From: Nitrospirota bacterium
GTDB lineage: Bacteria > Nitrospirota > Thermodesulfovibrionia > Thermodesulfovibrionales > UBA1546
Length of the DNA: 64,000 nucleotides
Assembly (NCBI GenBank): GCA_016195565.1
Contig: JACPZK010000011.1
Coordinates: forward strand, 13,097 to 77,096
Reading direction: 5' to 3'
Positions 3,825 through 54,709 of the stretch are shown one piece after another. A model generated the notes under the pieces. The model was not told the DNA's origin and did no database searches. It was given only the letters and a program-made list of their open reading frames with translations. The translations under genes were made by a program, and so were the position numbers. Positions within the stretch are counted from its first letter, which is position 1, and the number at the start of each line of letters is the position of its first letter.

Positions 3825-5441
3825 ATGAGAGATTATCCGTCAGAATACAAAAATTTTTCCCTCTCAGCGCCTGAAAAGTTTTCTTTTCCGCTTGACGTCT
3901 TTGATAAATGGGAAAACAGGCCGGCGCTTTACTGGACAGACGGCGTTAATGACAGAACACTTTCATTCGCTGAATTAAAACTCCTCTCATCAAAAGGCGC
4001 AGGCGCTCTCAAAAACAGGAGAATTGTAAAGGGCGATAAAGTCCTTGTTATGCTCCCCGGCATTCCGGAGTGGTGGGAGATAATGCTCGCGCTTATGAGG
4101 ATAAACGCCATTCCGATACCTGCCACAACCCTGCTGACATCTAAGGACATAGAATACAGGCTTGCATCAGCAGACATAAAGGCAATCATCGCATCAGATG
4201 AAGATGCAGACAAAGTGGAAATCGCTGTAAATAAATCCTCTGCGCAACCCTCTCTTATCATTATTGGCGAAAGACAGAACTGGCATAACTACATAGAAGA
4301 AAGAAACAGCGCAGACGCCTTTGAAGGCGAGAGGGCGTTTTCATCAGAGCCTGCATTAATCTATTTCACATCAGGCACAACAGGCCCGCCGAAAATGGCG
4401 CTCCATACGCAGGCATCCTACCCTTTCGCACACCTGATAACAGGAAAGTACTGGCTTGACCTTAAGCCCGGCGATATCCACTGGAATCTCTCAGACCCCG
4501 GATGGGCAAAGGCGGCGTGGTCCAGCCTGTTTGGCCCGTGGCATATGGGAGCGGTAATATTTTCATTTTACAGAAAGGGGAAATTTGATCCTTCACTGAC
4601 AATGGAAATCCTGCAGAAATACCCTATAACAACATTCTGCGGGCCTCCGACAGCTTACAGGATAATTGTTAAAGAGATTCAATCCCGAAACTTATTCGGG
4701 ACAAAATTCAAGTTTAAATCTGCCCGGCATTTCGTTGCAGCCGGTGAGCCTCTTAACAAAGAGATAATTGGGATATGGAAAGAGAGAACAGGGCTGTATA
4801 TTTATGACGGTTACGGGCAGACAGAGACAGTGAATATTCTGGCAAATTTCAGATGTCTTCCAGTAAAGCCGGGTTCGATGGGAGTGCCGGTCCCTGGATT
4901 TTCTGTTGATATTATTGATGACAGCGGAAATCCGACTTCTTTAAATACCGAGGGCGATATAGCAATAAAAATAAAGCCTGAAAGGCCTGTAGGATTATTC
5001 AGGGAATATCTCGGAAACCCTGAGGCGACAGCTAAAACAGTAAGGGGCCAATGGTATATAACAGGCGACAGGGCCTATAAAGACAAAGACGGATACTTCT
5101 GGTTTGTCGGCAGGTCGGATGATGTTATACTCGCATCAGGATACAGGATAGGGCCTTTTGAGATAGAGAGCATCCTGATAGAACATCCTGCTGTAAAGGA
5201 ATCTGCGGTTGTTGCAAGCCCTGACAAAATAAGGGGCGAGGTTGTGAAAGCATTTATCGTCTTAACGCAGGGATTCAGCCCCTCGGATGCCCTCATAAAA
5301 GAACTACAGGAATTTGTGAAGAACCGCACAGCGCCGTATAAGTATCCGCGCAAGATTGAATTCGTTGAGGACCTGCCTAAAACCATAAGTGGAAAAATAA
5401 AGAGAAAAGAACTGAAAATGAAAGAATTCGGAAGGATTTAA
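3825..5441 (+). CDS. AMP-forming acyl-CoA synthetase/ligase
   Basis: YFTSGTTGPPK AMP-binding motif, DGYGQTE, C-terminal SGKIKRKEL. Confidence 0.85.
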   Translation: MRDYPSEYKNFSLSAPEKFSFPLDVFDKWENRPALYWTDGVNDRTLSFAELKLLSSKGAGALKNRRIVKGDKVLVMLPGIPEWWEIMLALMRINAIPIPATTLLTSKDIEYRLASADIKAIIASDEDADKVEIAVNKSSAQPSLIIIGERQNWHNYIEERNSADAFEGERAFSSEPALIYFTSGTTGPPKMALHTQASYPFAHLITGKYWLDLKPGDIHWNLSDPGWAKAAWSSLFGPWHMGAVIFSFYRKGKFDPSLTMEILQKYPITTFCGPPTAYRIIVKEIQSRNLFGTKFKFKSARHFVAAGEPLNKEIIGIWKERTGLYIYDGYGQTETVNILANFRCLPVKPGSMGVPVPGFSVDIIDDSGNPTSLNTEGDIAIKIKPERPVGLFREYLGNPEATAKTVRGQWYITGDRAYKDKDGYFWFVGRSDDVILASGYRIGPFEIESILIEHPAVKESAVVASPDKIRGEVVKAFIVLTQGFSPSDALIKELQEFVKNRTAPYKYPRKIEFVEDLPKTISGKIKRKELKMKEFGRI

Positions 5442-44390: not shown

Positions 44391-44523
44391 GTCATTGCGA
44401 GGAATAAAATGACGAAGCAATCTCAGAGCAGAAAGATTGCCACGCGGAGTTTATCCTGAGCGTAAAGGCAAGATTGCTTCGCCTTCGGCTCGCAATGACA
44501 GAAAGCGAAGGGCTCGTAATGAC
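44391..44523. repeat. type-A palindromic element, compound
   Basis: gtcattgcgagg..gaagcaatctc..agattgccacgc..agattgcttcgcc..ctcgcaatgac..ctcgtaatgac. Confidence 0.8.
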
Positions 44524-44538
44524 AAGGGACACTGATTT

Positions 44539-45228
44539 ATGAACAACGAAAAGATTCTCATAGTTGAAGACGAAAAGAAAATATCTGACATCGTAAAGTC
44601 CTATCTTGAAAGAGAGGGCTTCGATGTCACTACTGCCGAAACAGGCAGGGAAGCGCTTAAGTTAATTAAAGACAGATTTGACCTCATAATCCTGGACCTT
44701 AAACTCCCTGACATTGAAGGAGAAGAAATCTGCCGTTCAATAAGAGGAATATCCGATGTCCCGATAATCATGCTCACTGCAAAAAGCTCAGAAGACGAAA
44801 GAGTGAAAGGGCTTGGAATCGGCGCCGACGACTACGTTATCAAACCTTTCAGTCCGAGAGAACTCGTTGCAAGGGTAAAGGCACATCTGAGGAGAACAAA
44901 GAAAGGAGAGAAAAAGGTTCTCTCTTTTAACAAAGGCATCCTTATAGTAGACACCACTTCAATGGAGGTTAAAAAACGAGAAGCGCCTGTTTCCCTTACC
45001 ACAACTGAATTCAGGATACTGCTCTGCCTTGCAGAAAGGCCCGGCGCTGTCCTGAACAGGCTCCAGCTTACGAATACGGTTCAGGGATATGATTTTGAAG
45101 GCTATGACAGGGTCATTGACGCACATATAAAGAATATCAGGCACAAGATAGAGGATAACATCCAGAAGCCTGTTTTCATAAAAACTGTTTATGGGGCTGG
45201 ATATAAATTTATAGGGGTGCGGGATTGA
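44539..45228 (+). CDS. OmpR-family response regulator (CusR/CopR-like by context)
   Basis: receiver plus winged-helix (TVYGAGYKF). Confidence 0.85.
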   Translation: MNNEKILIVEDEKKISDIVKSYLEREGFDVTTAETGREALKLIKDRFDLIILDLKLPDIEGEEICRSIRGISDVPIIMLTAKSSEDERVKGLGIGADDYVIKPFSPRELVARVKAHLRRTKKGEKKVLSFNKGILIVDTTSMEVKKREAPVSLTTTEFRILLCLAERPGAVLNRLQLTNTVQGYDFEGYDRVIDAHIKNIRHKIEDNIQKPVFIKTVYGAGYKFIGVRD

Positions 45229-45241
45229 AGACATTTTCGGT

Positions 45242-45311
45242 GTCATTGCGAGGGACAGAGTCCCGTGGCAATCTCAAAGGGATGGGATTGCTTCACTCCG
45301 TTCGCAATGAC
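45242..45311. repeat. type-A palindromic element (intercistronic)
   Basis: gtcattgcgaggg..gtggcaatctc..gggattgcttcac..ttcgcaatgac. Confidence 0.85.
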
Positions 45312-45328
45312 AGAAAGGGCATGCTAAC

Positions 45329-46687
45329 TTGAAAACAAAAATATTTCTCGCCTTCATAGCAATAATCCTGGCAGCGCTTTTTTCAAACTTCATCTTTGAA
45401 TGGCTGATAATCAGGGATTTTGACAATTATGTCAGCGGAGTGAGGGAAGACCAGTTTTACTGGACCCTTGCATCTGTTGAGGGAAGCTATTCTGACGGGA
45501 AATGGAACAAGGGCTCTCTCTCTGAATCCATACACTGGGCCATGATGCTCGGACTTAACGTGAAGGTTCTTGATAATGCAGGGAAAGAAATCATCTCATC
45601 TCACGAGGTGATGGAATCCCTTTCTGAATCCATGAAGCGAAGAATGGATGAGCACTTCCATGTTCACGCGCACGAAGCAGAGGGAAAATTCACTGACTAC
45701 CCGCTTTATGCAAAGGGCAAAAAAATCGGGACGCTTCTTTCACAGCCATTTCAAAAACAGGAGATACAGGAAAAGGAATCCATATTCAAAAAAAGGACAA
45801 AAAATTTCCTTTATGTATCGTTTCTGATTGCAGGCGGAGGCTCGCTGCTTATAGCCTTCCTTCTGAGCCGCTATCTTTCAAAGCCGATAATGAACTTAAA
45901 AATGGCAGCAGAGAAGATTGCAGACGGAGATTTCATGGTAAGGACAAGCGCCTCATCCCATGATGAGATAGGAAAATTGTCAGCAGCTTTCAACAAAATG
46001 GCAGAGTCTCTTCAGAGGGAAGAGGAACTCAGGAAACATCTTTTTTCCAATATTGCGCATGAACTAAGAACACCCCTGACAATCCTTAAGACCCATGCAG
46101 AGGCTATAGCTGATGGAGTGATAGAAAGAGAAAAAGGACTGGAGAACATCAAAAACGAGATTGACAGGCTGATAAAGCTCGTCAAAGGCATAGAAGATAT
46201 TACGATGGCAGAGGCGAGTTTTTTTACTAAAGGAGAGACCGCAGAGATAAACCTCATGGAATTTCTCTCTGGAATCTGCGATGAGATGCTTCCTGCATTT
46301 AAACAAAAAGGACTTGGGATAAAGATTCTAAGGGCAGACGGCCTTCTTATTTCCACAGATATTGAAAAACTTGAAAGGATAACAAGAAACATAATCTCCA
46401 ATTCCCTGAAGTTCATGGAAAAAGGCGGTGTCCGTATTGACTACGGAACCGAAGGAGAAATGTTCTTTATTGAGATAAGAGATTCAGGCAGGGGAATACC
46501 TGAAAACGAGATTCCTTTGATATTCAACCGTTTTTACAGAGGGGCCAAATCAGATACCGAGAGTCTGGGGCTTGGCCTTGCAATAGTCAAGGAGCTCGTT
46601 GAAGTGATGGCTGGCAGGATTGAGGTAAAAAGCACGATAGATAAAGGAACGACATTCAGGGTGTTCCTGCCGATAAAAGGCGCCTGA
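45329..46687 (+). CDS. HAMP-domain sensor histidine kinase (CusS/CopS-like by context)
   Basis: two TM segments, HAMP, H-box HELRTPLT, HATPase; TTG start. Confidence 0.8.
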   Translation: MKTKIFLAFIAIILAALFSNFIFEWLIIRDFDNYVSGVREDQFYWTLASVEGSYSDGKWNKGSLSESIHWAMMLGLNVKVLDNAGKEIISSHEVMESLSESMKRRMDEHFHVHAHEAEGKFTDYPLYAKGKKIGTLLSQPFQKQEIQEKESIFKKRTKNFLYVSFLIAGGGSLLIAFLLSRYLSKPIMNLKMAAEKIADGDFMVRTSASSHDEIGKLSAAFNKMAESLQREEELRKHLFSNIAHELRTPLTILKTHAEAIADGVIEREKGLENIKNEIDRLIKLVKGIEDITMAEASFFTKGETAEINLMEFLSGICDEMLPAFKQKGLGIKILRADGLLISTDIEKLERITRNIISNSLKFMEKGGVRIDYGTEGEMFFIEIRDSGRGIPENEIPLIFNRFYRGAKSDTESLGLGLAIVKELVEVMAGRIEVKSTIDKGTTFRVFLPIKGA

Positions 46688-46760
46688 GAACAGCGCCCAA
46701 TGAACTACCCAGCGGCAAGACCGCAGGGTATCTAAATCAAAACAACTTTAGTCATATGTC

Positions 46761-46827
46761 GTCATTCCTGCGAAAGCAGGAATCCAGAAAAAGAAAAAAC
46801 TGGATTCCGCATCAAGTGCGGAATGAC
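46761..46827. repeat. type-B palindromic element
   Basis: gtcattcctgcgaaagcaggaatccag..ctggattccgcatcaagtgcggaatgac. Confidence 0.85.
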
Positions 46828-46935
46828 AGAAATAAGGAGCCCCAGCCTCCTTGTAAGTTTTCGTTTCAAAAAATCTCTCCATAATTTTTCTTTTCTCTTC
46901 ATAATTCCTTCATTATTGAATGCTATGTTTTAACC

Positions 46936-47262
46936 ATGACAAAATGGTTATTCATAGTTGCCCTGAGTGGAATTCTAACAGCCAATATCCATGCAGAAAC
47001 GAAAAAAGAGGAGCCGGAGAAAGGCGTTACACCCTATGGCGTTTCATGCCCCATCTGCGGTGAATACGGGTATTGTAAAAAAGAGGTAAAGCATGAAGAG
47101 GCAGTCAAAGCGCTTGAAAAATATTACAAAGAAAAAGGGATGACTATTGCCATAACGAAAAAAGAAGGACGGTTCATAGAGGCAGAGATTTACAAAGACA
47201 AGGATTTAGTTGACAGGGTTGTCCTTGACTGTAAAACAGGAAAGATAAGATCAATATATTAG
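46936..47262 (+). CDS. small secreted PepSY-like protein with CxxC
   Basis: signal peptide; CPICGEYGYC; C-terminal ..VVLDCKTGKIRSIY resembles a PepSY fold end. Confidence 0.45.
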   Translation: MTKWLFIVALSGILTANIHAETKKEEPEKGVTPYGVSCPICGEYGYCKKEVKHEEAVKALEKYYKEKGMTIAITKKEGRFIEAEIYKDKDLVDRVVLDCKTGKIRSIY

Positions 47263-47275
47263 AGGAGGTGAGTTT

Positions 47276-47680
47276 ATGAAGTGGAATGTATTAACAGCGT
47301 GGGTGATTATTATCGCAATGACTTTGCTGCTCGGTTCTGATATAGCGGCAGCCCAGACCATCAAGAAAGACGAATCTCTGAGAATGGGGGAAAAAAGACC
47401 CACCCTTGATCCAAACATCTTTTCCGATAACGCTAAAATAAAAAAGGCGTATCAGATTGCGAAAGAGATCCCATGGGTTCTTGACAGCATTTACTGCTAT
47501 TGCTATTACGAGGAGTCTCCGGCATTCAAACATAAGAGCCTTTTAAGCTGTTATGTTGACAACCATGCAGCGATGTGAGACATTTGCATGGGGGAGGCCC
47601 TGCGGGCTTCCGAACTTTACAAAAAAGGCTATTCTGTTAAAAAGATAAAGGAAATAGTTGAAAAGGAATACAAGAGATAA
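47276..47680 (+). CDS. PCYCGC/CYCxC-motif family protein with in-frame UGA (candidate selenocysteine, U-x-x-C)
   Basis: strong RBS GAGGAGG; signal/TM; ..IYCYCYYEESPAFKHKSLLSCYVDNHAAM-UGA(47576-47578)-DICMGEALRASELYKKGYSVKKIKEIVEKEYKR*; the frame stays open 34 codons past the TGA with family-like sequence. Confidence 0.65.
47593..47611 (+). promoter_or_regulatory. candidate SECIS-like hairpin
   Basis: GGAGGCC-CTGCG-GGCTTCC, 7-bp stem (one G:U), starting 14 nt after the UGA. Confidence 0.35.
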
Positions 47681-47693
47681 AGGAGAAAAGTCT

Positions 47694-47761
47694 GTCATTC
47701 CGTGCTTGACACGGAATCCAGACATGGAAAGATACTGGATTCCCGCTTTCGCGGGAATGAC
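47694..47761. repeat. type-B palindromic element
   Basis: gtcattccgtgcttgacacggaatccag..ctggattcccgctttcgcgggaatgac. Confidence 0.85.
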
Positions 47762-47780
47762 AAATTATAGGAGGAAAAAT

Positions 47781-48056
47781 ATGAAAAGATTGGCTGTATT
47801 TACATTGGCGCTACTTTTGGTTGCAGGAGTTACTTATGCAGCGGAACAGGCAAATACCACTGAGCAGGTAAAAAAGGCAGAAGCAGTTGGGAATAAAATC
47901 TGTCCTGTAAGCGGCGAAAAAATTGATGAAAAGACGAAAGCAACATACGAATACAATGGCAAAATCTACAATTTCTGCTGTCCGATGTGCGTTGAAGAGT
48001 TCAAAAAAGACCCTGAGAAATATAATGGTAAAAATAAACAATTGGAGGTAAAATGA
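47781..48056 (+). CDS. secreted YHS/TRASH-type metal-binding protein
   Basis: RBS AGGAGGA; signal peptide MKRLAVFTLALLLVAGVTYA; ICPVSGEKI..YNFCCPMCVEEFKKDPEKY; the longer ORF from 47658 reads through repeat B. Confidence 0.75.
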   Translation: MKRLAVFTLALLLVAGVTYAAEQANTTEQVKKAEAVGNKICPVSGEKIDEKTKATYEYNGKIYNFCCPMCVEEFKKDPEKYNGKNKQLEVK

Positions 48057-48445
48057 TGAAAAAGTTTGCTGTATTCAGTTTAATCATGCTTTTAATAGCG
48101 GGCATTGCTTATGCAAAAGATTATGAAGTAAAGAAAAAGGCAGGGGAATACGATGTGGAGATAAAAATCGACAAAAACCCGCCTGTAGTGGGCGACAATA
48201 ATATCACAGTAGAAATTAAAGATGCATCGGGTAAATATGTGACCGATGCAAAGGTGAAGGTTGAATATTCCATGCCTGCCATGCCTGGTATGCCTGCCTC
48301 GAACTACAAGACAGACACAGAACTCAAAGGCTATGAATACAAGGCAAAGATGAATCTCTCCATGTCAGGTGCGTGGAATGTCGCAGTAAAAATAACAAGG
48401 AGCGGTAAAACCACAACGGTAAAATTCAATGCGGATGCGCACTAA
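48053..48445 (+). CDS. secreted YtkA/FixH-like Met-rich metal-binding protein
   Basis: signal peptide; MPAMPGMPAS; Ig-like beta pattern. Confidence 0.55.
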   Translation: MMKKFAVFSLIMLLIAGIAYAKDYEVKKKAGEYDVEIKIDKNPPVVGDNNITVEIKDASGKYVTDAKVKVEYSMPAMPGMPASNYKTDTELKGYEYKAKMNLSMSGAWNVAVKITRSGKTTTVKFNADAH

Positions 48446-49835
48446 GATAGAAGATAAGAGGATAAGAAGTTTGGAAGATAAGAATATTACCTCCAATGCA
48501 CAACTTCTCAACTTCTCAACTTCTCAATTTCTAATTCTTTTACTGTTTACTGTCTACTGTTTACTGTCTACTGAAAATGCTTTTGCCGAAGAACTGAAAC
48601 TTCAGCCCCTGATAGACGAGGCGCTGAAGAGCAATCATGACCTCATTGTATCAGGATTAAAGGTATCCACTTCAAAATACAAGATACCTCAGGTACAGAG
48701 CCTTCCTGACCCCATGTTCATGTTCGGCTATCAGAATGAAGGATACGACAGATACACTTATGGCGAGATGCAGGGCGCACAGTGGATGTTCTCTGCATCT
48801 CAGATGTTCCCATTCCCCGGGAAGCTATCGTTAAAGGGAGAGATGGCTCTTAGAGATTCTGAAAGCCTAAAGGCATTATACGAATCCGCAAAGCTCACAA
48901 CAATAGCGAGAATAAAAGAACTTTACTATGACCTGTTCCTCACCTATAGAGACATTGACATCATTAAAGACAAGAATTCGCTTTTCTCAAGGATAGAGGA
49001 TGCAGCCATTGCAAGATACTCATCAGGCATGGCGCCGCAGCAGGAAGTATTAATGGCTCAAACAGAAAAATACATGCTGCTTGAAAAAGAGGAGATGCTG
49101 AAACAAAAGCTGCGATCCATAGAGGCGATGCTAAACACAACCGTTGGCCGGGATGTTAATTCGCCTCTCGGAAGGCCTGTTGAACCTGTTTATGTTTCGT
49201 ATAACCCAAGCATGGATGAACTTCTTAAAATGTCATACTCAAATTCTCCTCTGATAAAATCCAGAGAAAAGATGATTGCCTCGGCAAAGGCAAAGGTTAA
49301 TATGGCTGAGAAGGAATATTATCCTGATTTCACCATTGCCGGCTCAGTCTTTGAGCGGAGGGGAGAGTTCAAAGATATGTGGAGCCTCACAACCACAATC
49401 AACATACCTATTTTTTATAAAACAAAACAGAAAATGGCTGTGCTTGAGGCAGAATCAGCCCTTTCAGAGGCAAAACACGAACTTGAGGCGGTTAAGTTAA
49501 TGCTGTCATCCAATATAAGAGAAAACTACTCTATGATTAAGGCTGCGGAAAAATTAACGGAGCTGTACAGGAATGGACTTATACCCAAGGCATATCAGGA
49601 TTTTGAACTCGCAATTGCCGGATATGTAACAGGAAAAGTCGAGGCAATAACTGTCATAACAAGGCTGAAATCACTTATTGACTATGAGCTTTTATACTGG
49701 GGGCAGTTTACGGAAAGAGAGAAGGCAACAGCGAGGCTTGAGGCGATAACAGCAGTCAGCAATCAGCACTCAGTACGCCCTGCTCTTCAGAATAAAATTG
49801 AGGCGAGCGTCATTCAGGGAGAAAAAGAAAAATGA
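48429..49835 (+). CDS. TolC-family outer membrane efflux protein (CusC position)
   Basis: two OEP repeats; the N-terminal 55 aa are encoded by arrays. Confidence 0.8.
   Translation: MRMRTKIEDKRIRSLEDKNITSNAQLLNFSTSQFLILLLFTVYCLLSTENAFAEELKLQPLIDEALKSNHDLIVSGLKVSTSKYKIPQVQSLPDPMFMFGYQNEGYDRYTYGEMQGAQWMFSASQMFPFPGKLSLKGEMALRDSESLKALYESAKLTTIARIKELYYDLFLTYRDIDIIKDKNSLFSRIEDAAIARYSSGMAPQQEVLMAQTEKYMLLEKEEMLKQKLRSIEAMLNTTVGRDVNSPLGRPVEPVYVSYNPSMDELLKMSYSNSPLIKSREKMIASAKAKVNMAEKEYYPDFTIAGSVFERRGEFKDMWSLTTTINIPIFYKTKQKMAVLEAESALSEAKHELEAVKLMLSSNIRENYSMIKAAEKLTELYRNGLIPKAYQDFELAIAGYVTGKVEAITVITRLKSLIDYELLYWGQFTEREKATARLEAITAVSNQHSVRPALQNKIEASVIQGEKEK
48444..48576. repeat. triple array: 5 x 8 (AGATAAGA-like), 16-nt spacer, 3-5 x 8 (ACTTCTCA), 5 x 7 (ACTGNNT)
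   Basis: units phased at 48444-48483, 48503-48541, 48542-48576. Confidence 0.9.
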
Positions 49836-51067
49836 AAAAAATAAATCTCATAATTATAATCGGACTGATTTTGACAGCAGGATTAATATTCTATCTCTTA
49901 AAGCCGGAGTTCCTGAAAAGCCCTGTAAAAAACAAACCGCCGGCATCTGTGCAATCAGCGGCTCCTGCACATCAGGGACATACCGCAGAGAGTAAAGAGC
50001 CGCAGGCTCGGGTTGAAACGCAGCAGAAAGAGCAGACAGAGGAAGCCCCAACTGTCGAGATTCCTCTTGAAAAACAGCAGTTGATAGGCGTAAAAACAGT
50101 TGCGGCGTCTGTGAAGCCGCTGCAGAAAATTATCAGAACAGTTGGCCGTATTGAATACGATGAAAGAAGGCTTGCGACTGTCAATACAAAGTTCGAAGGC
50201 TGGATTGAAAAACTTTATGTGAACTACACAGGAAAGTATGTCAAAAAAGGCGAGCCGCTTGCAGAGATTTATAGCCCTGAGCTTGTCGCAACTCAGCAGG
50301 AATTCTTAAACGCGCTTAAGTGGGCAAAACCGGGCGCAGACAAAGACAGCGCCTTAGGCAAAATGCTTTCAAAGGATGCTGAGGCAATAATTGAAGCGGC
50401 AAAACAGAGGCTGAGGTTATGGGACATAAACGATGCGCAGATTAAAAAAATTGAAGAGGCAGGAAAACCTATAAGAACATTAACCATATACAGCCCTGCA
50501 AGCGGCTATGTCGTGCAGAAAACAGCATTGCAGGGAATGCGCGTTATGTCAGGTGAAAAGCTATTTGATATTGCAGACCTTTCCACGGTCTGGATAGTAT
50601 CGGATATATACGAATATGAAGTGCATTTAATGAAAACAGGGCAGACCGCAAAGATAAGCCTGAGCTATTTCCCCGGCAGGGAATTTTCATCAACAATTGA
50701 CTACATCTACCCTTCACTTGCAGGAGAAACAAGAACAGCAAAGATAAGGTTCACAATAGCAAACCCGGGCGGACAGCTCAAACCACAGATGTTTACCAAC
50801 GTAGAGGTAAAAATCAACTTAGGCAGTAAACTTGTTATACCTGAAAGCGCTGTGATTGATACCGGAATAAGGCAGATAGTTTACGTTGATAAGGGAGAAG
50901 GGTATTTTGAGCCGAGAGAGGTTATGTTAGGGCTTAAGGCAGAGGGCATGGCAGAAGTTCTCAAAGGAATAAAGGCAGGGGAAAAAGTGGCGTCGTCAGG
51001 CAACTTCCTTATTGACTCAGAGGCTCAGTTAAAAGGGATAAAGCCGCTTGAAGGGCATAAACATTGA
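49832..51067 (+). CDS. cusB: RND efflux periplasmic adaptor (CusB-like)
   Basis: HlyD/MFP-type translation; between the OMF and cusA. Confidence 0.75.
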   Translation: MKKINLIIIIGLILTAGLIFYLLKPEFLKSPVKNKPPASVQSAAPAHQGHTAESKEPQARVETQQKEQTEEAPTVEIPLEKQQLIGVKTVAASVKPLQKIIRTVGRIEYDERRLATVNTKFEGWIEKLYVNYTGKYVKKGEPLAEIYSPELVATQQEFLNALKWAKPGADKDSALGKMLSKDAEAIIEAAKQRLRLWDINDAQIKKIEEAGKPIRTLTIYSPASGYVVQKTALQGMRVMSGEKLFDIADLSTVWIVSDIYEYEVHLMKTGQTAKISLSYFPGREFSSTIDYIYPSLAGETRTAKIRFTIANPGGQLKPQMFTNVEVKINLGSKLVIPESAVIDTGIRQIVYVDKGEGYFEPREVMLGLKAEGMAEVLKGIKAGEKVASSGNFLIDSEAQLKGIKPLEGHKH

Positions 51068-51072
51068 AAGAA

Positions 51073-51166
51073 AGTGAAGAGTGACAGTGTACAGTGCCAG
51101 TGAACAGACTCAGAAAACTGAACATTGACACGGAAAAAACTGACACTAATCACTGACACTGATACT
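51073..51166. repeat. paired array: AGTG-anchored 6-7-mers x6, spacer, ACTG/ATTG-anchored units
   Basis: agtgaag agtgac agtgtac agtgcc agtgaac .. actgaac attgaca .. actgacac .. actgacac; fills the cusB-cusA intergenic region. Confidence 0.85.
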
Positions 51167-51174
51167 AAACAACA

Positions 51175-54100
51175 ATGATTGCTAAAATAATAGAACTAAG
51201 CGCAAGGAACAAATTCATAATCTTTCTGCTGGTATTTTTCCTCTTAGCATGGGGATACTGGGCGCTTAAGAATACTCCGCTTGATGCAATACCTGATTTA
51301 AGCGACACTCAGGTAATCATCTATACGGAGTGGCCCGGAAAAAGCCCTGACCTTGTTGAAGACCAGATAACTTATCCGATAACATCAACGCTCCTTGCAG
51401 CGCCAAAGGTTCAGGTTGTAAGAGGGTTCTCTTATCTCGGAAGCTCGTTTATCTATGTAATCTTTGAAGAAGGGACAGATATCTACTGGGCACGCAGCAG
51501 GGTGCTTGAATACCTTCAGTCAGTAAAAAATAAAATCCCTGCTGAAGTCAATCCTGTTTTGGGGCCTGACGCAACAAGCGTGGGATGGGGATTCTCTTAT
51601 GCTGTAGTTGATGAGACAGGCAGGCACGACCTCTCAGAACTTCGCTCTGTGCAGGATTACAACATAAAACTTGCACTTGAGGGTGTGCCGGGTGTCTCTC
51701 AGGTTGCAAGCATTGGCGGGTTCGTAAAGCAGTATCAGATAACAATAGACCCTAACAAGCTTCTTGCATATAACCTTCCGATAACCACAGTTATGGATGC
51801 AATAAGGAAAAGCAATAAAGATGTGGAAGGCAGAGTGCTTGAATTCTCGGGCATTGAATATATGGTAAGAGGAAGAGGTTATATCAAAACACTTGACGAC
51901 CTCAAAAACATTCCTGTTGGTACAGGCGGCGCGGGAACGCCTGTATTCCTGAGAGACATAGCGAACATACAGCTCGGGCCTGAGATACGAAGAGGGCTTG
52001 CTGAGCTTGACGGAAAAGGCGAGGTGGCAGGAGGCATTGTAGTTATAAGATTCGGCGAAAATGTCCTCAATGTCATAGACAGGGTTAAAGAAAGGATTAA
52101 GAATGATATTGAGCCGAGCCTTCCGAAGGGAATGAAGATTATCACAACCTATGACAGGACTGACCTTATACACCGCTCCATTGACACACTCAAAGAAGAA
52201 ATCATAAAGCTCTCCATAGCAGTCAGCGTCGTATGCATAGTATTTTTATTCCATCTTCCGAGCGCGCTCGTTGTCATTCTCACTCTGCCTATTGCAATCA
52301 TCATCTCATTTATATGCATGTATTATCTCGGCGTCACTTCAAATATCATGAGCCTGAGCGGCATTGCAATTGCAATCGGCGCAATGGTGGATGCATCAAT
52401 AATAATGGTTGAGAATGCGCATAAAAAACTTGAAGAGTGGGAACTGCACGGCAGCCATGGCAGCAGGGTGGAAGTGATTATCGATGCAGCGAAGGAGGTC
52501 GGCCCTTCTCTCTTCTTTGCGCTGCTTGTAATCACCGTAGGATTTCTGCCTGTATTTACGCTTCAGGCACAGGCAGGAAGATTATTTAAACCACTGGCAT
52601 ACACAAAGACCTTTGCAATGCTTTTCTCATCTTTCCTTGCGATTACGTTGACGCCTGTGTTGATGACGCTCTTCATACGCGGGAAGATAAAGCCGGAAGA
52701 TAAAAATCCTATAAGCATTATCCTCCACAAAATCTATGAGCCTGTCGCGGCCCTCGCGCTCAGATTCAAAAAAAGCGTTATTGTCATTGCAATAATCATC
52801 ATGGCGATTACTGTCTATCCATTTATAAAACTCGGCTCGGAATTCATGCCTCCGCTTTATGAGGGGACATTGTTTTATATGCCTGTCACAGTGCCGGCGG
52901 CTTCAATAACTGAAGTGTCAAAACTCCTTCAACTGCAGGATAAGATTCTGAAGAAGATTCCCGAAGTTGAGCAGGTATTCGGAAAAGCAGGCCGCGCAGA
53001 GACGGCAACAGACCCTGCACCATTAGAGATGTTCGAGACAGTTATAAATCTTAAACCCGAAAAAGAATGGCGAAAGGGGATGACAGTTGAAGGGTTAAAG
53101 AATGAGATGAACGACGCATTGAGCATTCCGGGAGTTGCAAATTCCTTCACAATGCCGATAAAAGCCCGCATTGACATGCTCTCTACAGGCATAAGAACTC
53201 CTGTAGGAATCAAGGTTTTAGGCCCAAAGCTTGAGGAAATAGAGAAACTCGGACTGGAGTTGGAGAACCTCATTAAAGATATTCCGGGCACAAGAAGCGT
53301 CTATGCGGAAAGAGTGACAACAGGATATTTTCTGGACTTTAATATCAAGCGTGAGGAAGCCGCAAGGTATGGAATAAATGTTGATGACATTCAGGAAGTA
53401 GTGCAGACTGCTGTAGGAGGCATGAACCTGACAATTACTGTTGAAGGCAGGGAACGCTATCCTGTGAATGTCCGCTATTCAAGGGAATTGAGAAATGACA
53501 TTGATAAACTCAAAAGGGTTCTCGTGCCTGTTATGAATCAGCCTTCAGCATTCCCCTCCTCAGGCGGATTCGGCGGCCAACAGTCAGGTATGGGAGCAGT
53601 GCAGCCCGTATCCATGAAAACACTTCAGGTTCCTCTCGGCGAGCTTGTTGACATAAAAATTGTAAAAGGCCCCACACAGATAAAGAGTGAAGAAGGGCTT
53701 TTGACCGCCTATGTATATATAGATTTCACAGGAAGGGATATCGGAGGTTATGTCAATGAGGCAAAAAAGAAAGTCGCCTCTATGAAAATCCCGGAAGGCT
53801 ACCGCCTTGAATGGAGCGGTGAATACGAGCACCTCGTAAAAACACATGAAAGGCTCAAACTTGTCATCCCGCTTACAGCGCTGATAATCTTTGTGCTTAT
53901 ATACCTGAACACAAAGTCAGTGACTAAGACATTTATAGTGCTTCTTGCGGTTCCATTCTCCCTTGTAGGCTCATTCTGGCTTCTTTATCTTTTAAATTAC
54001 AACATGAGCATTGCCGTATGGGTCGGCATCATCGCTCTTGCCGGGCTTGATGCAGAGACAGGCGTTGTCATGCTCCTGTATCTTGAGCTTGCATACGAAA

Positions 54101-54378
54101 AATGGAAAAAGGAAGGCAAGCTTAATTCCATTATTGATTTAAAAGAAGCAGTAATGTACGGCGCAGTAAAAAGAATACGTCCGAAGATAATGACTGTAAG
54201 CGTAATCCTTGCAGGCCTTATCCCTATCATGTTCAGCCACGGAACAGGCGCGGACGTTATGAAACGCATTGCAGCCCCGATGGTAGGCGGAGTTATCACT
54301 TCAACAATTCTGGAACTGGTTATCTATCCCGCGATCTATATGATATGGAAAGGAAGGGAGTTTAGAGAGAAAAAATAA
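51175..54378 (+). CDS. cusA: heavy-metal (Cu/Ag) efflux RND pump CusA
   Basis: collinear with E. coli CusA as I recall it, incl. the three Met-site contexts (LFYMPVT, APLEMFET, RIDMLSTGI). Confidence 0.9.
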   Translation: MIAKIIELSARNKFIIFLLVFFLLAWGYWALKNTPLDAIPDLSDTQVIIYTEWPGKSPDLVEDQITYPITSTLLAAPKVQVVRGFSYLGSSFIYVIFEEGTDIYWARSRVLEYLQSVKNKIPAEVNPVLGPDATSVGWGFSYAVVDETGRHDLSELRSVQDYNIKLALEGVPGVSQVASIGGFVKQYQITIDPNKLLAYNLPITTVMDAIRKSNKDVEGRVLEFSGIEYMVRGRGYIKTLDDLKNIPVGTGGAGTPVFLRDIANIQLGPEIRRGLAELDGKGEVAGGIVVIRFGENVLNVIDRVKERIKNDIEPSLPKGMKIITTYDRTDLIHRSIDTLKEEIIKLSIAVSVVCIVFLFHLPSALVVILTLPIAIIISFICMYYLGVTSNIMSLSGIAIAIGAMVDASIIMVENAHKKLEEWELHGSHGSRVEVIIDAAKEVGPSLFFALLVITVGFLPVFTLQAQAGRLFKPLAYTKTFAMLFSSFLAITLTPVLMTLFIRGKIKPEDKNPISIILHKIYEPVAALALRFKKSVIVIAIIIMAITVYPFIKLGSEFMPPLYEGTLFYMPVTVPAASITEVSKLLQLQDKILKKIPEVEQVFGKAGRAETATDPAPLEMFETVINLKPEKEWRKGMTVEGLKNEMNDALSIPGVANSFTMPIKARIDMLSTGIRTPVGIKVLGPKLEEIEKLGLELENLIKDIPGTRSVYAERVTTGYFLDFNIKREEAARYGINVDDIQEVVQTAVGGMNLTITVEGRERYPVNVRYSRELRNDIDKLKRVLVPVMNQPSAFPSSGGFGGQQSGMGAVQPVSMKTLQVPLGELVDIKIVKGPTQIKSEEGLLTAYVYIDFTGRDIGGYVNEAKKKVASMKIPEGYRLEWSGEYEHLVKTHERLKLVIPLTALIIFVLIYLNTKSVTKTFIVLLAVPFSLVGSFWLLYLLNYNMSIAVWVGIIALAGLDAETGVVMLLYLELAYEKWKKEGKLNSIIDLKEAVMYGAVKRIRPKIMTVSVILAGLIPIMFSHGTGADVMKRIAAPMVGGVITSTILELVIYPAIYMIWKGREFREKK

Positions 54379-54406: not shown

Positions 54407-54709
54407 ATGAAATTAATTATAGCGATTATAAAGACAACATCCGCAGAAAAGGTTATAAAAGACCTTGAACATATCGGCATTAAAAACATATCTCTTTCAG
54501 AGGTCAAAGGCATAGGTGAACAGGTTGAAGCATTCAAACAGTATGCCGTTCACAAGAGGCTTGAGATTATTGTTCCGCAGGAAAAGGCCGCCGAAGTCTC
54601 GGATATAATTCTAAAAAATGCCCATACAGGGCTTGCAGGCGACGGCATAATAGCTGTCTGCCCTGTTGACCATCTCATAAAAATAAGGACTATGGAGAAG
54701 ATAAAATAA
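54407..54709 (+). CDS. P-II (GlnB-like) family small protein
   Basis: 100-aa MKLIIAIIK...VKGIGEQ.. ferredoxin-like fold pattern. Confidence 0.7.
   Translation: MKLIIAIIKTTSAEKVIKDLEHIGIKNISLSEVKGIGEQVEAFKQYAVHKRLEIIVPQEKAAEVSDIILKNAHTGLAGDGIIAVCPVDHLIKIRTMEKIK

What the first reader, a model, noticed from the sequence alone, without database searches (positions are those of the whole stretch)
47276..47680. Candidate selenoprotein: PCYCGC/CYCxC-motif protein with UGA at a Cys position (U-x-x-C) and a downstream hairpin, inside the copper island
The track ORF stops at TGA 47576-47578. The same frame stays open for 34 more codons to TAA 47678-47680, and the extension is clearly protein-like: ..CYCYYEESPAFKHKSLLSCYVDNHAAM-U-DICMGEALRASELYKKGYSVKKIKEIVEKEYKR. 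As I recall the PCYCGC-motif family (Pfam PF13798), the conserved pattern is CYCGC...HKSL..C......H...C..C..EA followed by a K/E-rich helix. If so, the UGA replaces the first Cys of the distal CxxC, the classic place for Sec. A 7-bp hairpin (GGAGGCC CTGCG GGCTTCC, 47593-47611) starts 14 nt after the UGA, a plausible bacterial SECIS position. TGA is an ordinary stop elsewhere in the window (22280, 28105, 51065), so this is not a code reassignment. A Sec form of this family sitting between CusRS and CusCBA would tie selenium to periplasmic or membrane copper handling.
Basis: partly seen in the sequence, partly recalled or inferred. Interest (0 to 1): 0.7.

Follow-up and report, generated by a model that had tools for sequence, protein, structure and literature searches.

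The report
Known CYCXC selenoprotein gene, mis-called truncated
The in-frame TGA is a genuine selenocysteine codon in a small exported Cys-rich protein encoded beside a copper/silver efflux pump, but this selenoprotein family (CYCXC / OS_HP4, PF13798, UxxC) is already catalogued and has a curated NCBI model, so the finding is correct but not new.

Summary
The ORF 47276-47578 stops at TGA, and the frame continues to TAA 47678-47680. All 86 relatives examined carry TGA at the same codon. In 82 of them the roughly 33-codon extension is open and conserved. Purifying selection continues past the TGA (pN/pS 0.20 downstream, 0.175 upstream, 1.2-1.6 in the off-frames). Distant full-length homologues have a nearly invariant Cys at that column (HAAxCxIC). 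The hairpin at 47593-47611 is paired in 98.3% of cells across 74 distinct sequences, shows compensatory changes, has invariant four-fold-degenerate stem sites, and is much weaker in six Cys-form genes.

The family is already known. NCBIfam equivalog NF041379 "CYCXC family (seleno)protein" scores 121 bits on the read-through (cut-off 90), and two reviews list OS_HP4/PF13798 as a UxxC selenoprotein.

One result I did not find in the papers searched. The Sec clade is linked to YtkA-like, TolC, CusB and CusA genes, or to other copper genes. Four of six Cys forms sit in cytochrome c maturation (ResB/CcsA) operons.

Sec machinery in this genome could not be tested. The function (periplasmic Cu(I)-handling or thiol-redox protein) is inferred.

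The parts
47276..47680 (+). Full CYCXC-family selenoprotein gene (134 aa including Sec101). N-terminal signal peptide, then CxCx(C->Y) ... H ... C ... H ... UxxC, then a K/E-rich C-terminal helix.
   Evidence: Translation. NCBIfam NF041379 scores 121 bits against a cut-off of 90 on the read-through and 74.5 on the truncated form. Pfam PF13798 scores 38.5 against 19.3 bits. The signal peptide is read by eye (hydrophobic N-terminus, AAA|Q) and was not tested with a predictor.
47576..47578 (+). In-frame UGA read as selenocysteine, the first residue of UxxC.
   Evidence: TGA sits at this codon in 86 of 86 related sequences. Cys occupies this column in distant full-length homologues.
47593..47611 (+). 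SECIS-like hairpin: a 7-8 bp G+C-rich stem (47593-47600 paired with 47604-47611) and a 3-5 nt loop, starting 14 nt after the UGA.
   Evidence: The centroid fold. 98.3% of cells paired over 74 distinct sequences, against 23-68% for slid controls. Pair 27-39 occurs as GC 37, GU 24, AU 12. Pair 24-42 occurs as GC 66, CG 2, AU 1. Four-fold-degenerate sites in the stem have zero entropy. Local energy is -14.0 kcal/mol against 0 to -9.3 in Cys forms.
47579..47677 (+). The 33 codons after the UGA (DICMGEALRASELYKKGYSVKKIKEIVEKEYKR), translated as part of the protein.
   Evidence: pN/pS is 0.20 in frame and 1.2-1.6 out of frame. The extension adds 19 bits to Pfam and 46 bits to NCBIfam. The internal ATG at 47588 is not conserved: it is Leu, Ile or Gln in relatives.
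47505..47510 (+). The third Cys of the CxCxC motif is replaced by Tyr in this window only (TAT TAC = Tyr-Tyr; the TAC at 47507-47509 is a Cys codon in all relatives).
   Evidence: this Cys is nearly invariant to invariant everywhere else.
46936..47262 (+). Upstream 108-aa exported hypothetical protein with a CPICG motif. It co-occurs upstream in 9 of 55 loci.
   Evidence: (no family hit).
47781..48056 (+). YHS-domain protein gene, present between CYCXC and YtkA in 13 of 70 loci.
   Evidence: Pfam YHS 45.5 bits.
48053..48445 (+). YtkA-like periplasmic protein gene, the most conserved downstream neighbour.
   Evidence: Pfam YtkA 68.7 bits. It lies downstream on the same strand in 37 of 58 loci.
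48429..54378 (+). Heavy-metal RND efflux genes: TolC-like outer-membrane factor (48429-49835), CusB/CzcB-like adaptor (49832-51067), and CusA/CzcA-family pump (51175-54378).
   Evidence: TIGR00914 scores 1111 bits against a cut-off of 701. RND_mfp passes its cut-off. Conserved downstream in 28 of 45 loci (TolC) and 19 of 27 (CusB).
44539..46687 (+). OmpR-family response regulator and sensor kinase upstream. A generic two-component system, not demonstrably CusRS.
   Evidence: the heavy-metal models TIGR01387 and TIGR01386 score below their cut-offs. Conserved upstream in 11 of 32-34 loci.

Best explanation
47276-47680 is one gene for a 134-residue selenoprotein of the known CYCXC (OS_HP4, PF13798, NF041379) family, from a Nitrospirota/Thermodesulfovibrionales-type bacterium. 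Gene callers truncate it at codon 101. That codon is a UGA decoded as selenocysteine, directed by the conserved G+C-rich hairpin 14 nt downstream (47593-47611), which acts as a bacterial SECIS for SelB and Sec-tRNA(Sec). The recoding is shown by comparative evidence. The molecular agents (SelB, tRNA-Sec) are inferred. The product has a signal peptide and is exported. Its conserved domain is a small helical fold carrying CxCxC, two His, one further Cys, and the U/CxxC at the N-terminus of a long helix. That is the position of the nucleophilic residue in redox-active CxxC proteins. Function is inferred from gene neighbourhood. It is most likely a periplasmic Cu(I)/Ag(I)-handling thiol/selenol protein that works with the YtkA-like and YHS proteins and the CusCBA-type pump. 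It could act as a metal-binding accessory (a CusF-like role) or as a reductase that keeps metal-ligand thiols reduced.
For: - Conservation of the TGA: 86 of 86 relatives have it, at 53-90% protein identity and from many independent assemblies.
- Translation past the TGA: pN/pS is 0.20 downstream, 0.175 upstream, and 1.2-1.6 in the off-frames.
- Cys at the aligned column in distant full-length homologues.
- Hairpin: 98.3% of cells paired, compensatory CG and AU swaps, A27 only ever opposite U39, and zero entropy at four-fold-degenerate stem sites where such sites elsewhere reach about 1.9 bits. Cys-form genes lack a comparable hairpin.
- Curated family model NF041379 is passed only by the read-through. 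NCBI names a relative 'CYCXC family (seleno)protein' (P0307).
- Reviews list OS_HP4/PF13798 as a UxxC selenoprotein.
- TGA is otherwise a normal stop in the window.
- Context: YtkA in 37 of 58 loci, TolC in 28 of 45, CusB in 19 of 27. Other contexts are an HMBD P-type ATPase, multicopper oxidases, TlpA-like redoxins and a YHS-flavoprotein. The pump is CusA/CzcA family.
- Structure model of a Cys form: pLDDT 94-99 over the domain, with C102 immediately before helix 103-117.
Against: - No selA, selB, selC or selD lies in the 64-kb window or in the fetched flanks. Sec machinery in this genome is therefore untested and known only for the lineage.
- No Rfam SECIS family matches, and the single-sequence folding energy is not significant.
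- The stem codes for conserved residues (E-A-L-R-A-S/F), so part of its conservation is protein-level.
- The window copy lacks the otherwise invariant third Cys of CxCxC. It may be a variant or an impaired copy.
- Function is inferred only from neighbours. Four of six Cys forms sit in cytochrome c maturation operons rather than metal-efflux operons. No solved structure or experiment exists for the family.
Confidence: 0.88

Rival explanations
1. The gene is the same and the UGA is recoded by the same hairpin and SelB, but the amino acid inserted is cysteine, or a Cys/Sec mixture that depends on selenium supply. The agent would be a SelC*-type tRNA(Cys), as described in Thermodesulfovibrio and Nitrospirae.
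For: PMC5389517 reports selC* tRNA-Cys genes in Thermodesulfovibrio and in contigs that are probably Nitrospirae, alongside complete Sec systems. Cys is functionally acceptable at this position, since it is the residue in all distant homologues.
Against: No selC* gene was seen in the window or flanks. Retention of UGA plus a hairpin in 86 of 86 relatives, with no TGC/TGT reversions in this clade, argues that something other than plain Cys is being selected.
Confidence: 0.06
2. The protein is primarily a thiol-disulfide (selenylsulfide) oxidoreductase, CcmH-like, that reduces periplasmic client cysteines such as apocytochrome c or metallochaperone thiols. It would draw on the CcdA/DsbD and TlpA/ResA pathway. 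It would not be a metal carrier. This concerns function only; the Sec recoding is unchanged.
For: Four of six Cys forms lie in Rnf -> PCYCGC -> TPR_CcmH_CycH -> ResB -> CcsA -> redoxin (-> DsbD) operons. TlpA-like redoxins sit immediately downstream of Sec forms in L030, L048 and L069. The U/CxxC lies at a helix N-terminus. There is a weak fold hit to the CcmH N-domain 2kw0 (TM 0.52 on the target, probability 0.33), and hhalign gives 58% probability over 26 columns.
Against: The CcmH similarity is not significant and does not cover the CxxC. The six Cys/Sec plus two His invariant residues are more than a redox pair needs. The Sec clade is mostly linked to metal efflux, not to cytochrome maturation.
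Confidence: 0.3
3. The TGA is a true stop: either a 100-aa truncated protein or pseudogene, or two separate products (a 100-aa protein plus a 30-aa peptide starting at ATG 47588).
For: Gene callers and GenBank annotate about 100-aa proteins. The window has an ATG at 47588. Open extensions after TGA are common by chance, in 5 of 23 ORFs.
Against: In-frame purifying selection continues across 75 distinct sequences, and the extension ends at the same place in relatives. The ATG is not conserved: it is Leu, Ile or Gln elsewhere. The truncated form fails both curated family cut-offs. Full-length Cys homologues are collinear.
Confidence: 0.02
4. The TGA is a sequencing or assembly error, or the organism reads TGA as a standard amino acid (genetic code 4 or 25).
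For: One database protein (P0017) shows Trp at this position.
Against: P0017's codon is TGA, and the Trp comes from the gene caller's code. 86 independent assemblies agree. TGA ends 22 other long ORFs in the window. Homologues have Cys here, not Trp or Gly.
Confidence: 0.01

Closest known systems
CYCXC family (seleno)protein = 'hypothetical protein OS_HP4' (NCBIfam NF041379 OS_HP4_CYCXC; Pfam PF13798 PCYCGC). Attributed to Zhang & Gladyshev 2007 (Olavius symbiont metagenome) in reviews PMC9312934 and PMC13188914.
   Same: The same family by a curated equivalog model (121 bits against a cut-off of 90). The same UxxC Sec motif as listed in the reviews. Both Sec and Cys forms exist.
   Different: This copy comes from a Nitrospirota/Thermodesulfovibrionales-type lineage, where database entries are truncated 'hypothetical proteins'. 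It has Tyr in place of the third Cys of CxCxC. The conserved linkage to the YtkA-like/CusCBA operon was not mentioned in the papers I could search.
Other predicted metal-related bacterial selenoproteins: YHS-domain selenoprotein NF041384, CopZ-like (2Fe-2S)-binding selenoproteins, SO_0444-family Cu/Zn efflux selenoprotein, and the MerT/MerP-like and Sao proteins listed in PMC13188914.
   Same: Sec occupies a metal-ligand or redox Cys position in small proteins encoded with heavy-metal resistance genes.
   Different: The fold and family differ. The YHS protein next to this gene is a Cys form, not a selenoprotein (16.6 bits against a cut-off of 70).
E. coli CusF, the periplasmic Cu(I)/Ag(I) chaperone encoded in cusCFBA (general knowledge, not tested here).
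   Same: A small exported protein encoded with a CusCBA-type pump. The role proposed here is analogous.
   Different: No sequence or fold relationship was found. CusF uses Met/His/Trp ligands in a beta-barrel (from memory), whereas this is a helical Cys/Sec/His protein. The analogy is functional only.
CcmH N-terminal domain, the periplasmic helical-bundle CxxC apocytochrome c reductase (PDB 2kw0).
   Same: A helical periplasmic domain with a redox-type CxxC. Cys forms are encoded next to a TPR_CcmH_CycH protein in cytochrome c maturation operons. There is weak fold and profile similarity.
   Different: The similarity is below significance (Foldseek E = 2.1; hhalign 58% over 26 columns that exclude the CxxC). 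No Pfam CcmH hit was found in any of 65 members.

Membership tests
Bacterial selenoprotein (Sec-encoding gene) | In-frame UGA conserved among orthologues | tested here: met
   TGA in 86 of 86 relatives.
Bacterial selenoprotein (Sec-encoding gene) | Cys-containing homologues align Cys to the UGA (the Sec/Cys pair criterion of Zhang & Gladyshev 2007) | tested here: met
   Nearly invariant Cys in 39 distant full-length homologues. Invariant C102 in 65 Cys forms.
Bacterial selenoprotein (Sec-encoding gene) | Sequence downstream of the UGA is translated and conserved | tested here: met
   pN/pS 0.20 in frame, 1.2-1.6 off frame. The extension adds 19 bits (Pfam) and 46 bits (NCBIfam).
Bacterial selenoprotein (Sec-encoding gene) | SECIS stem-loop immediately downstream of the UGA | tested here: met
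   A conserved 7-8 bp hairpin 14 nt after the UGA, with covariation, synonymous-site constraint, and a much weaker counterpart in Cys forms. No dedicated bSECIS predictor was available, and no Rfam match was found. SelB binding is not shown.
Bacterial selenoprotein (Sec-encoding gene) | selA, selB, selC and selD present in the same genome | not testable with these tools
   None in the window or flanks. Only lineage-level literature is available (PMC5389517; PMC9312934).
Bacterial selenoprotein (Sec-encoding gene) | Selenium demonstrated in the protein | not testable with these tools
   Needs 75Se labelling or mass spectrometry.
CYCXC family (seleno)protein, NF041379 / PF13798 | Score above the curated equivalog cut-off | tested here: met
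   121 bits against 90. PF13798 38.5 bits against 25.
CYCXC family (seleno)protein, NF041379 / PF13798 | C-Y-C-x-C motif | tested here: not met
   The window reads CYCYY, with the third Cys replaced by Tyr. All relatives have CxCxC. The model cut-off is still passed, so this is a variant copy rather than a non-member.
CYCXC family (seleno)protein, NF041379 / PF13798 | Distal U/CxxC motif as listed for OS_HP4 (UxxC) | tested here: met
   U-D-I-C at residues 101-104. The reviews list UxxC.
Cus-type copper/silver efflux operon (context) | CusA/CzcA-family RND pump with adaptor and outer-membrane factor | tested here: met
   TIGR00914 1111 bits against 701. RND_mfp 129 bits against 95, and a TolC-like protein. 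Monovalent (Cus) versus divalent (Czc) specificity was not resolved.
Cus-type copper/silver efflux operon (context) | CusRS-type heavy-metal two-component system | tested here: not met
   TIGR01387 169 bits against 279, and TIGR01386 117 against 293. The best hits are generic OmpR/BaeS-type systems.

The most novel reading that the evidence does not exclude
In this Nitrospirota clade the CYCXC selenoprotein would be a dedicated periplasmic Cu(I)/Ag(I) selenolate-thiolate carrier. It would be a functional analogue of CusF, acting with the YtkA-like protein to feed the CusCBA pump, which would make copper/silver resistance selenium-dependent. The family's ancestral Cys forms would serve cytochrome c maturation (ResB/CcsA operons). 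That would imply a shift from a CcmH-like thiol reductase role to metal handling, coinciding with the Cys-to-Sec change.
Probability: 0.25. Interest if true: 0.5.

Novelty: already known. Interest (0 to 1): 0.25.

Why it matters
Practically, this gene and hundreds of orthologues in public MAGs are annotated as 100-aa hypothetical proteins that lack their C-terminal third and their Sec/Cys redox or metal site. A read-through-aware annotation fixes that. Biologically, the family has no known function. The gene-neighbourhood data gathered here point to periplasmic copper handling or thiol redox chemistry: Sec forms are linked to YtkA-like/CusCBA genes, P-type ATPases and multicopper oxidases, and Cys forms to ResB/CcsA cytochrome c maturation. 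This gives a concrete, testable hypothesis for an orphan selenoprotein family. It does not open a new category, because Sec in metal-resistance proteins is already a recognised theme (PMC13188914).

Tried and rejected
I used P0017 instead.
- Rfam at gathering and permissive thresholds gave only noise and no SECIS family.
- Single-sequence folding energy was not significant.
- tRNA scans of the window and 38 loci found no tRNA-Sec. This is uninformative, because selC is normally elsewhere in the genome.
- A scan for a second read-through candidate in the window found nothing credible.
- The CcmH homology test was inconclusive. Pfam on 65 members showed no second family.
- The 2007 paper's main text does not mention OS_HP4, so the attribution rests on the two reviews and the NCBIfam model name.
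- Rejected readings: a separate 30-aa ORF (its start codon is not conserved), a pseudogene, a sequencing error, and code reassignment.

Full report
**Observation.** An ORF with a good Shine-Dalgarno sequence starts at 47276 and reaches TGA at 47576-47578. The same frame then runs 33 more sense codons to TAA 47678-47680. The hairpin GGAGGCC-CUGCG-GGCUUCC is at 47593-47611, 14 nt after the UGA. An eighth C-G pair is possible, and this hairpin alone forms the centroid structure. An open extension of at least 25 codons follows 5 of the 23 TGA-terminated ORFs in the window. The folding energy of the 65-nt segment is no better than shuffles (z = -0.34). TGA is otherwise a normal stop here, ending 22 of the other 60 long ORFs.

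**Family signal.** With Cys substituted for the UGA, Pfam PF13798 (PCYCGC) scores 38.5 bits. The truncated ORF scores 19.3, below the gathering score of 25.

**Comparative evidence for recoding.**
- A protein search returned 515 relatives. Nearly all are about 100 aa long and end at exactly ...CYVDNHAA(M/L/V), which is what a gene-caller artefact would look like.
- I fetched DNA for 5 genome loci (Nitrospiraceae/Thermodesulfovibrionales MAGs), 80 metagenome loci and one Logan contig.
- All 86 have TGA at this codon. This includes P0017, whose database translation shows Trp only because TGA was read under another genetic code.
- In 82 of the 86 the next 33 or so codons are open, conserved (DIC-LGEALRA(S/F)ELYKKGY-VKKI...EKE(Y/F)KR), and end at the same place.
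- The four exceptions are L081 (1-nt deletion), L005 (only the post-TGA fragment remains) and two loci cut by contig ends.
- Across 75 distinct sequences, Nei-Gojobori pN/pS is 0.20 downstream of the TGA and 0.175 upstream. The two off-frames give 1.6 and 1.2. Translation therefore continues through the TGA.
- The ATG at 47588 is Leu, Ile or Gln in relatives, which excludes a separate small ORF.

**Sec/Cys pair.** An exhaustive search of 1.84 billion representatives with P0017 found 893 relatives. Most of the best-scoring 150 listed are full-length proteins. In an alignment of 39 of these, the column aligned to the UGA is a nearly invariant Cys: HAAxCxIC, the first Cys of CxxC. In 65 Cys forms, C102 and C105 are invariant, together with C77, C79, C81, H87, C93 and H98.

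**The hairpin.**
- In an indel-free alignment of 74 distinct sequences (A3), the 8-bp helix is paired in 98.3% of cells. Slid controls give 23-68%, and 0 of 500 shuffles reach the observed pairing or covariation score.
- Pair 27-39 occurs as GC 37, GU 24 and AU 12, and A27 is never opposite C. Pair 24-42 shows double changes to CG (2 sequences) and AU (1).
- The four-fold-degenerate third positions of Ala GCC and Arg (C/A)GG inside the stem have zero entropy. Such sites outside the stem reach about 1.9 bits. Overall pS is lower downstream than upstream, 0.67 against 0.85.
- As a negative control, six Cys-form genes give local energies of 0 to -9.3 kcal/mol at the equivalent position. The Sec forms average -14.0.
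- No Rfam family matches. The comparison with published bacterial SECIS rules (distance to the UGA, G in the apical loop) is from memory and from a figure legend. I could not run a dedicated predictor.

**It is already known.** NCBIfam equivalog NF041379, 'OS_HP4_CYCXC - CYCXC family (seleno)protein', scores 121 bits on the read-through (cut-off 90) and 74.5 on the truncated form. NCBI already uses that name for a relative, P0307. The 2022 review PMC9312934 lists 'Hypothetical protein OS_HP4, UxxC'. [quoted passage not shown] Both cite Zhang & Gladyshev 2007, whose main text names only OS_HP1-3.

**Sec machinery.** Literature places complete selA/B/C/D sets, and also SelC* tRNA-Cys genes, in Thermodesulfovibrio and Nitrospirae (PMC5389517). 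Two reviews note selC embedded in or overlapping selB in Nitrospirae. This supports the lineage, not this genome. It leaves a small possibility that Cys is inserted at the UGA.

**Context and likely function.**
- In the window the gene follows an OmpR-type response regulator and kinase. These are not demonstrably CusRS: the heavy-metal models score far below their cut-offs. A 108-aa exported hypothetical protein lies immediately upstream.
- It precedes a YHS protein, a YtkA-like protein, a TolC-like factor, a CusB/CzcB-like adaptor and a CusA/CzcA-family pump (1111 bits against 701).
- This order is conserved. Among loci with enough flank, a YtkA-like gene follows in 37 of 58, TolC in 28 of 45, and CusB in 19 of 27, all on the same strand, down to about 55% identity.
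- Where the order is absent, the neighbours are an HMBD-type P-type ATPase, multicopper oxidases, TlpA-like redoxins, Met-rich proteins, or a YHS-fused flavoprotein disulfide reductase.
- The Cys forms differ. Four of six lie in Rnf -> PCYCGC -> TPR_CcmH_CycH -> ResB -> CcsA -> redoxin (-> DsbD) operons, i.e. cytochrome c maturation System II. The other two lie beside a YHS-P-type ATPase or an OEP/CusB pair.
- An AlphaFold model of Cys form P0278 is confident (pLDDT 94-99 over residues 41-135) and all-helical. C102, the Sec-equivalent, sits immediately before helix 103-117, the usual position of the nucleophile in redox CxxC motifs.
- No solved structure is related by sequence or by fold (best Foldseek E = 1.8). 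A weak hit to the CcmH N-domain and an hhalign match of 58% probability over 26 columns that exclude the CxxC are leads only.
- I therefore commit, as inference, to an exported Sec/Cys/His-rich protein that handles Cu(I)/Ag(I) or the thiols that bind them, alongside the Cus-type pump. The main functional rival is a CcmH-like thiol reductase.

**Verdict.** This is a real selenoprotein gene, mis-called as truncated, and a member of a curated known family. The conserved copper-gene neighbourhood and the cytochrome-maturation context of the Cys forms are the only elements I did not find in the searched literature. Interest is low to moderate.

Noticed in passing
window 47505-47510: The window's protein reads CYCYY, whereas all 86 relatives and all Cys forms have CxCxC. 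The otherwise invariant third Cys is Tyr here (TAC at 47507-47509, one G->A change away from TGC). It could be a real variant, an impaired copy, or a base error.
   Followed up: partly
window 46754-46830 and 47691-47768; also 44391-44499 and 45242-45311: REP-like hairpin elements occur almost only between genes, usually as head-to-head pairs: GTCATTCC-N-GGAATCC (12 copies in the window) and GTCATTGCGA-N-GCAATC (14 copies). One pair and its inverted twin bracket the two-gene unit hyp108 + CYCXC, and another pair brackets the response-regulator gene. The same element follows the CYCXC stop codon in L008, L011 and L014.
   Followed up: partly
L005 5591-5695: Only the post-TGA part of the gene survives here (TGA, hairpin and 34 codons), with unrelated sequence upstream. 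It lies just downstream of a multicopper oxidase gene. It could be a deletion remnant or an assembly chimera.
   Followed up: partly
L087, L088, L089, L092 (Cys-form loci), genes at 4001-4450 and flanks: Cys forms of the family sit in a conserved Rnf -> PCYCGC -> TPR(CcmH/CycH-like) -> ResB -> CcsA -> TlpA/ResA-like redoxins (-> DsbD) operon. This suggests a role in System II cytochrome c maturation. The PCYCGC + TPR gene pair resembles the two domains of E. coli CcmH.
   Followed up: partly
L081 1430-1460; L046 536-600: L081 has a 1-nt deletion in the G-run right after the TGA that frameshifts the extension. L046 has an extra A in the A-run. Both sit in homopolymer runs and are probably assembly errors, though they could be rare pseudogenes.
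   Followed up: no
window 47781-48056 versus related loci: The YHS-domain gene between CYCXC and the YtkA-like gene is present in only 13 of 70 loci with enough flank. It is a variable insert in an otherwise conserved operon. It is a Cys form, not the known YHS selenoprotein (NF041384 scores 16.6 against a cut-off of 70).
   Followed up: partly
window 54407-54709: A P-II family signal-transduction protein gene (Pfam P-II, 62 bits) lies directly after the CusA-family pump gene on the same strand, an unusual partner for a metal-efflux operon.
   Followed up: no
window 46936-47262: A 108-aa exported protein with a CPICGEYGYC motif and no family match in Pfam or NCBIfam. It lies immediately upstream of the CYCXC gene and recurs there in 9 of 55 loci.
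   Followed up: partly
public protein databases (P0001-P0120): Hundreds of orthologues are deposited as roughly 100-aa 'hypothetical proteins' truncated at the Sec codon. One Logan entry (P0017) reads the TGA as Trp. This is a systematic annotation error for the clade.
   Followed up: yes
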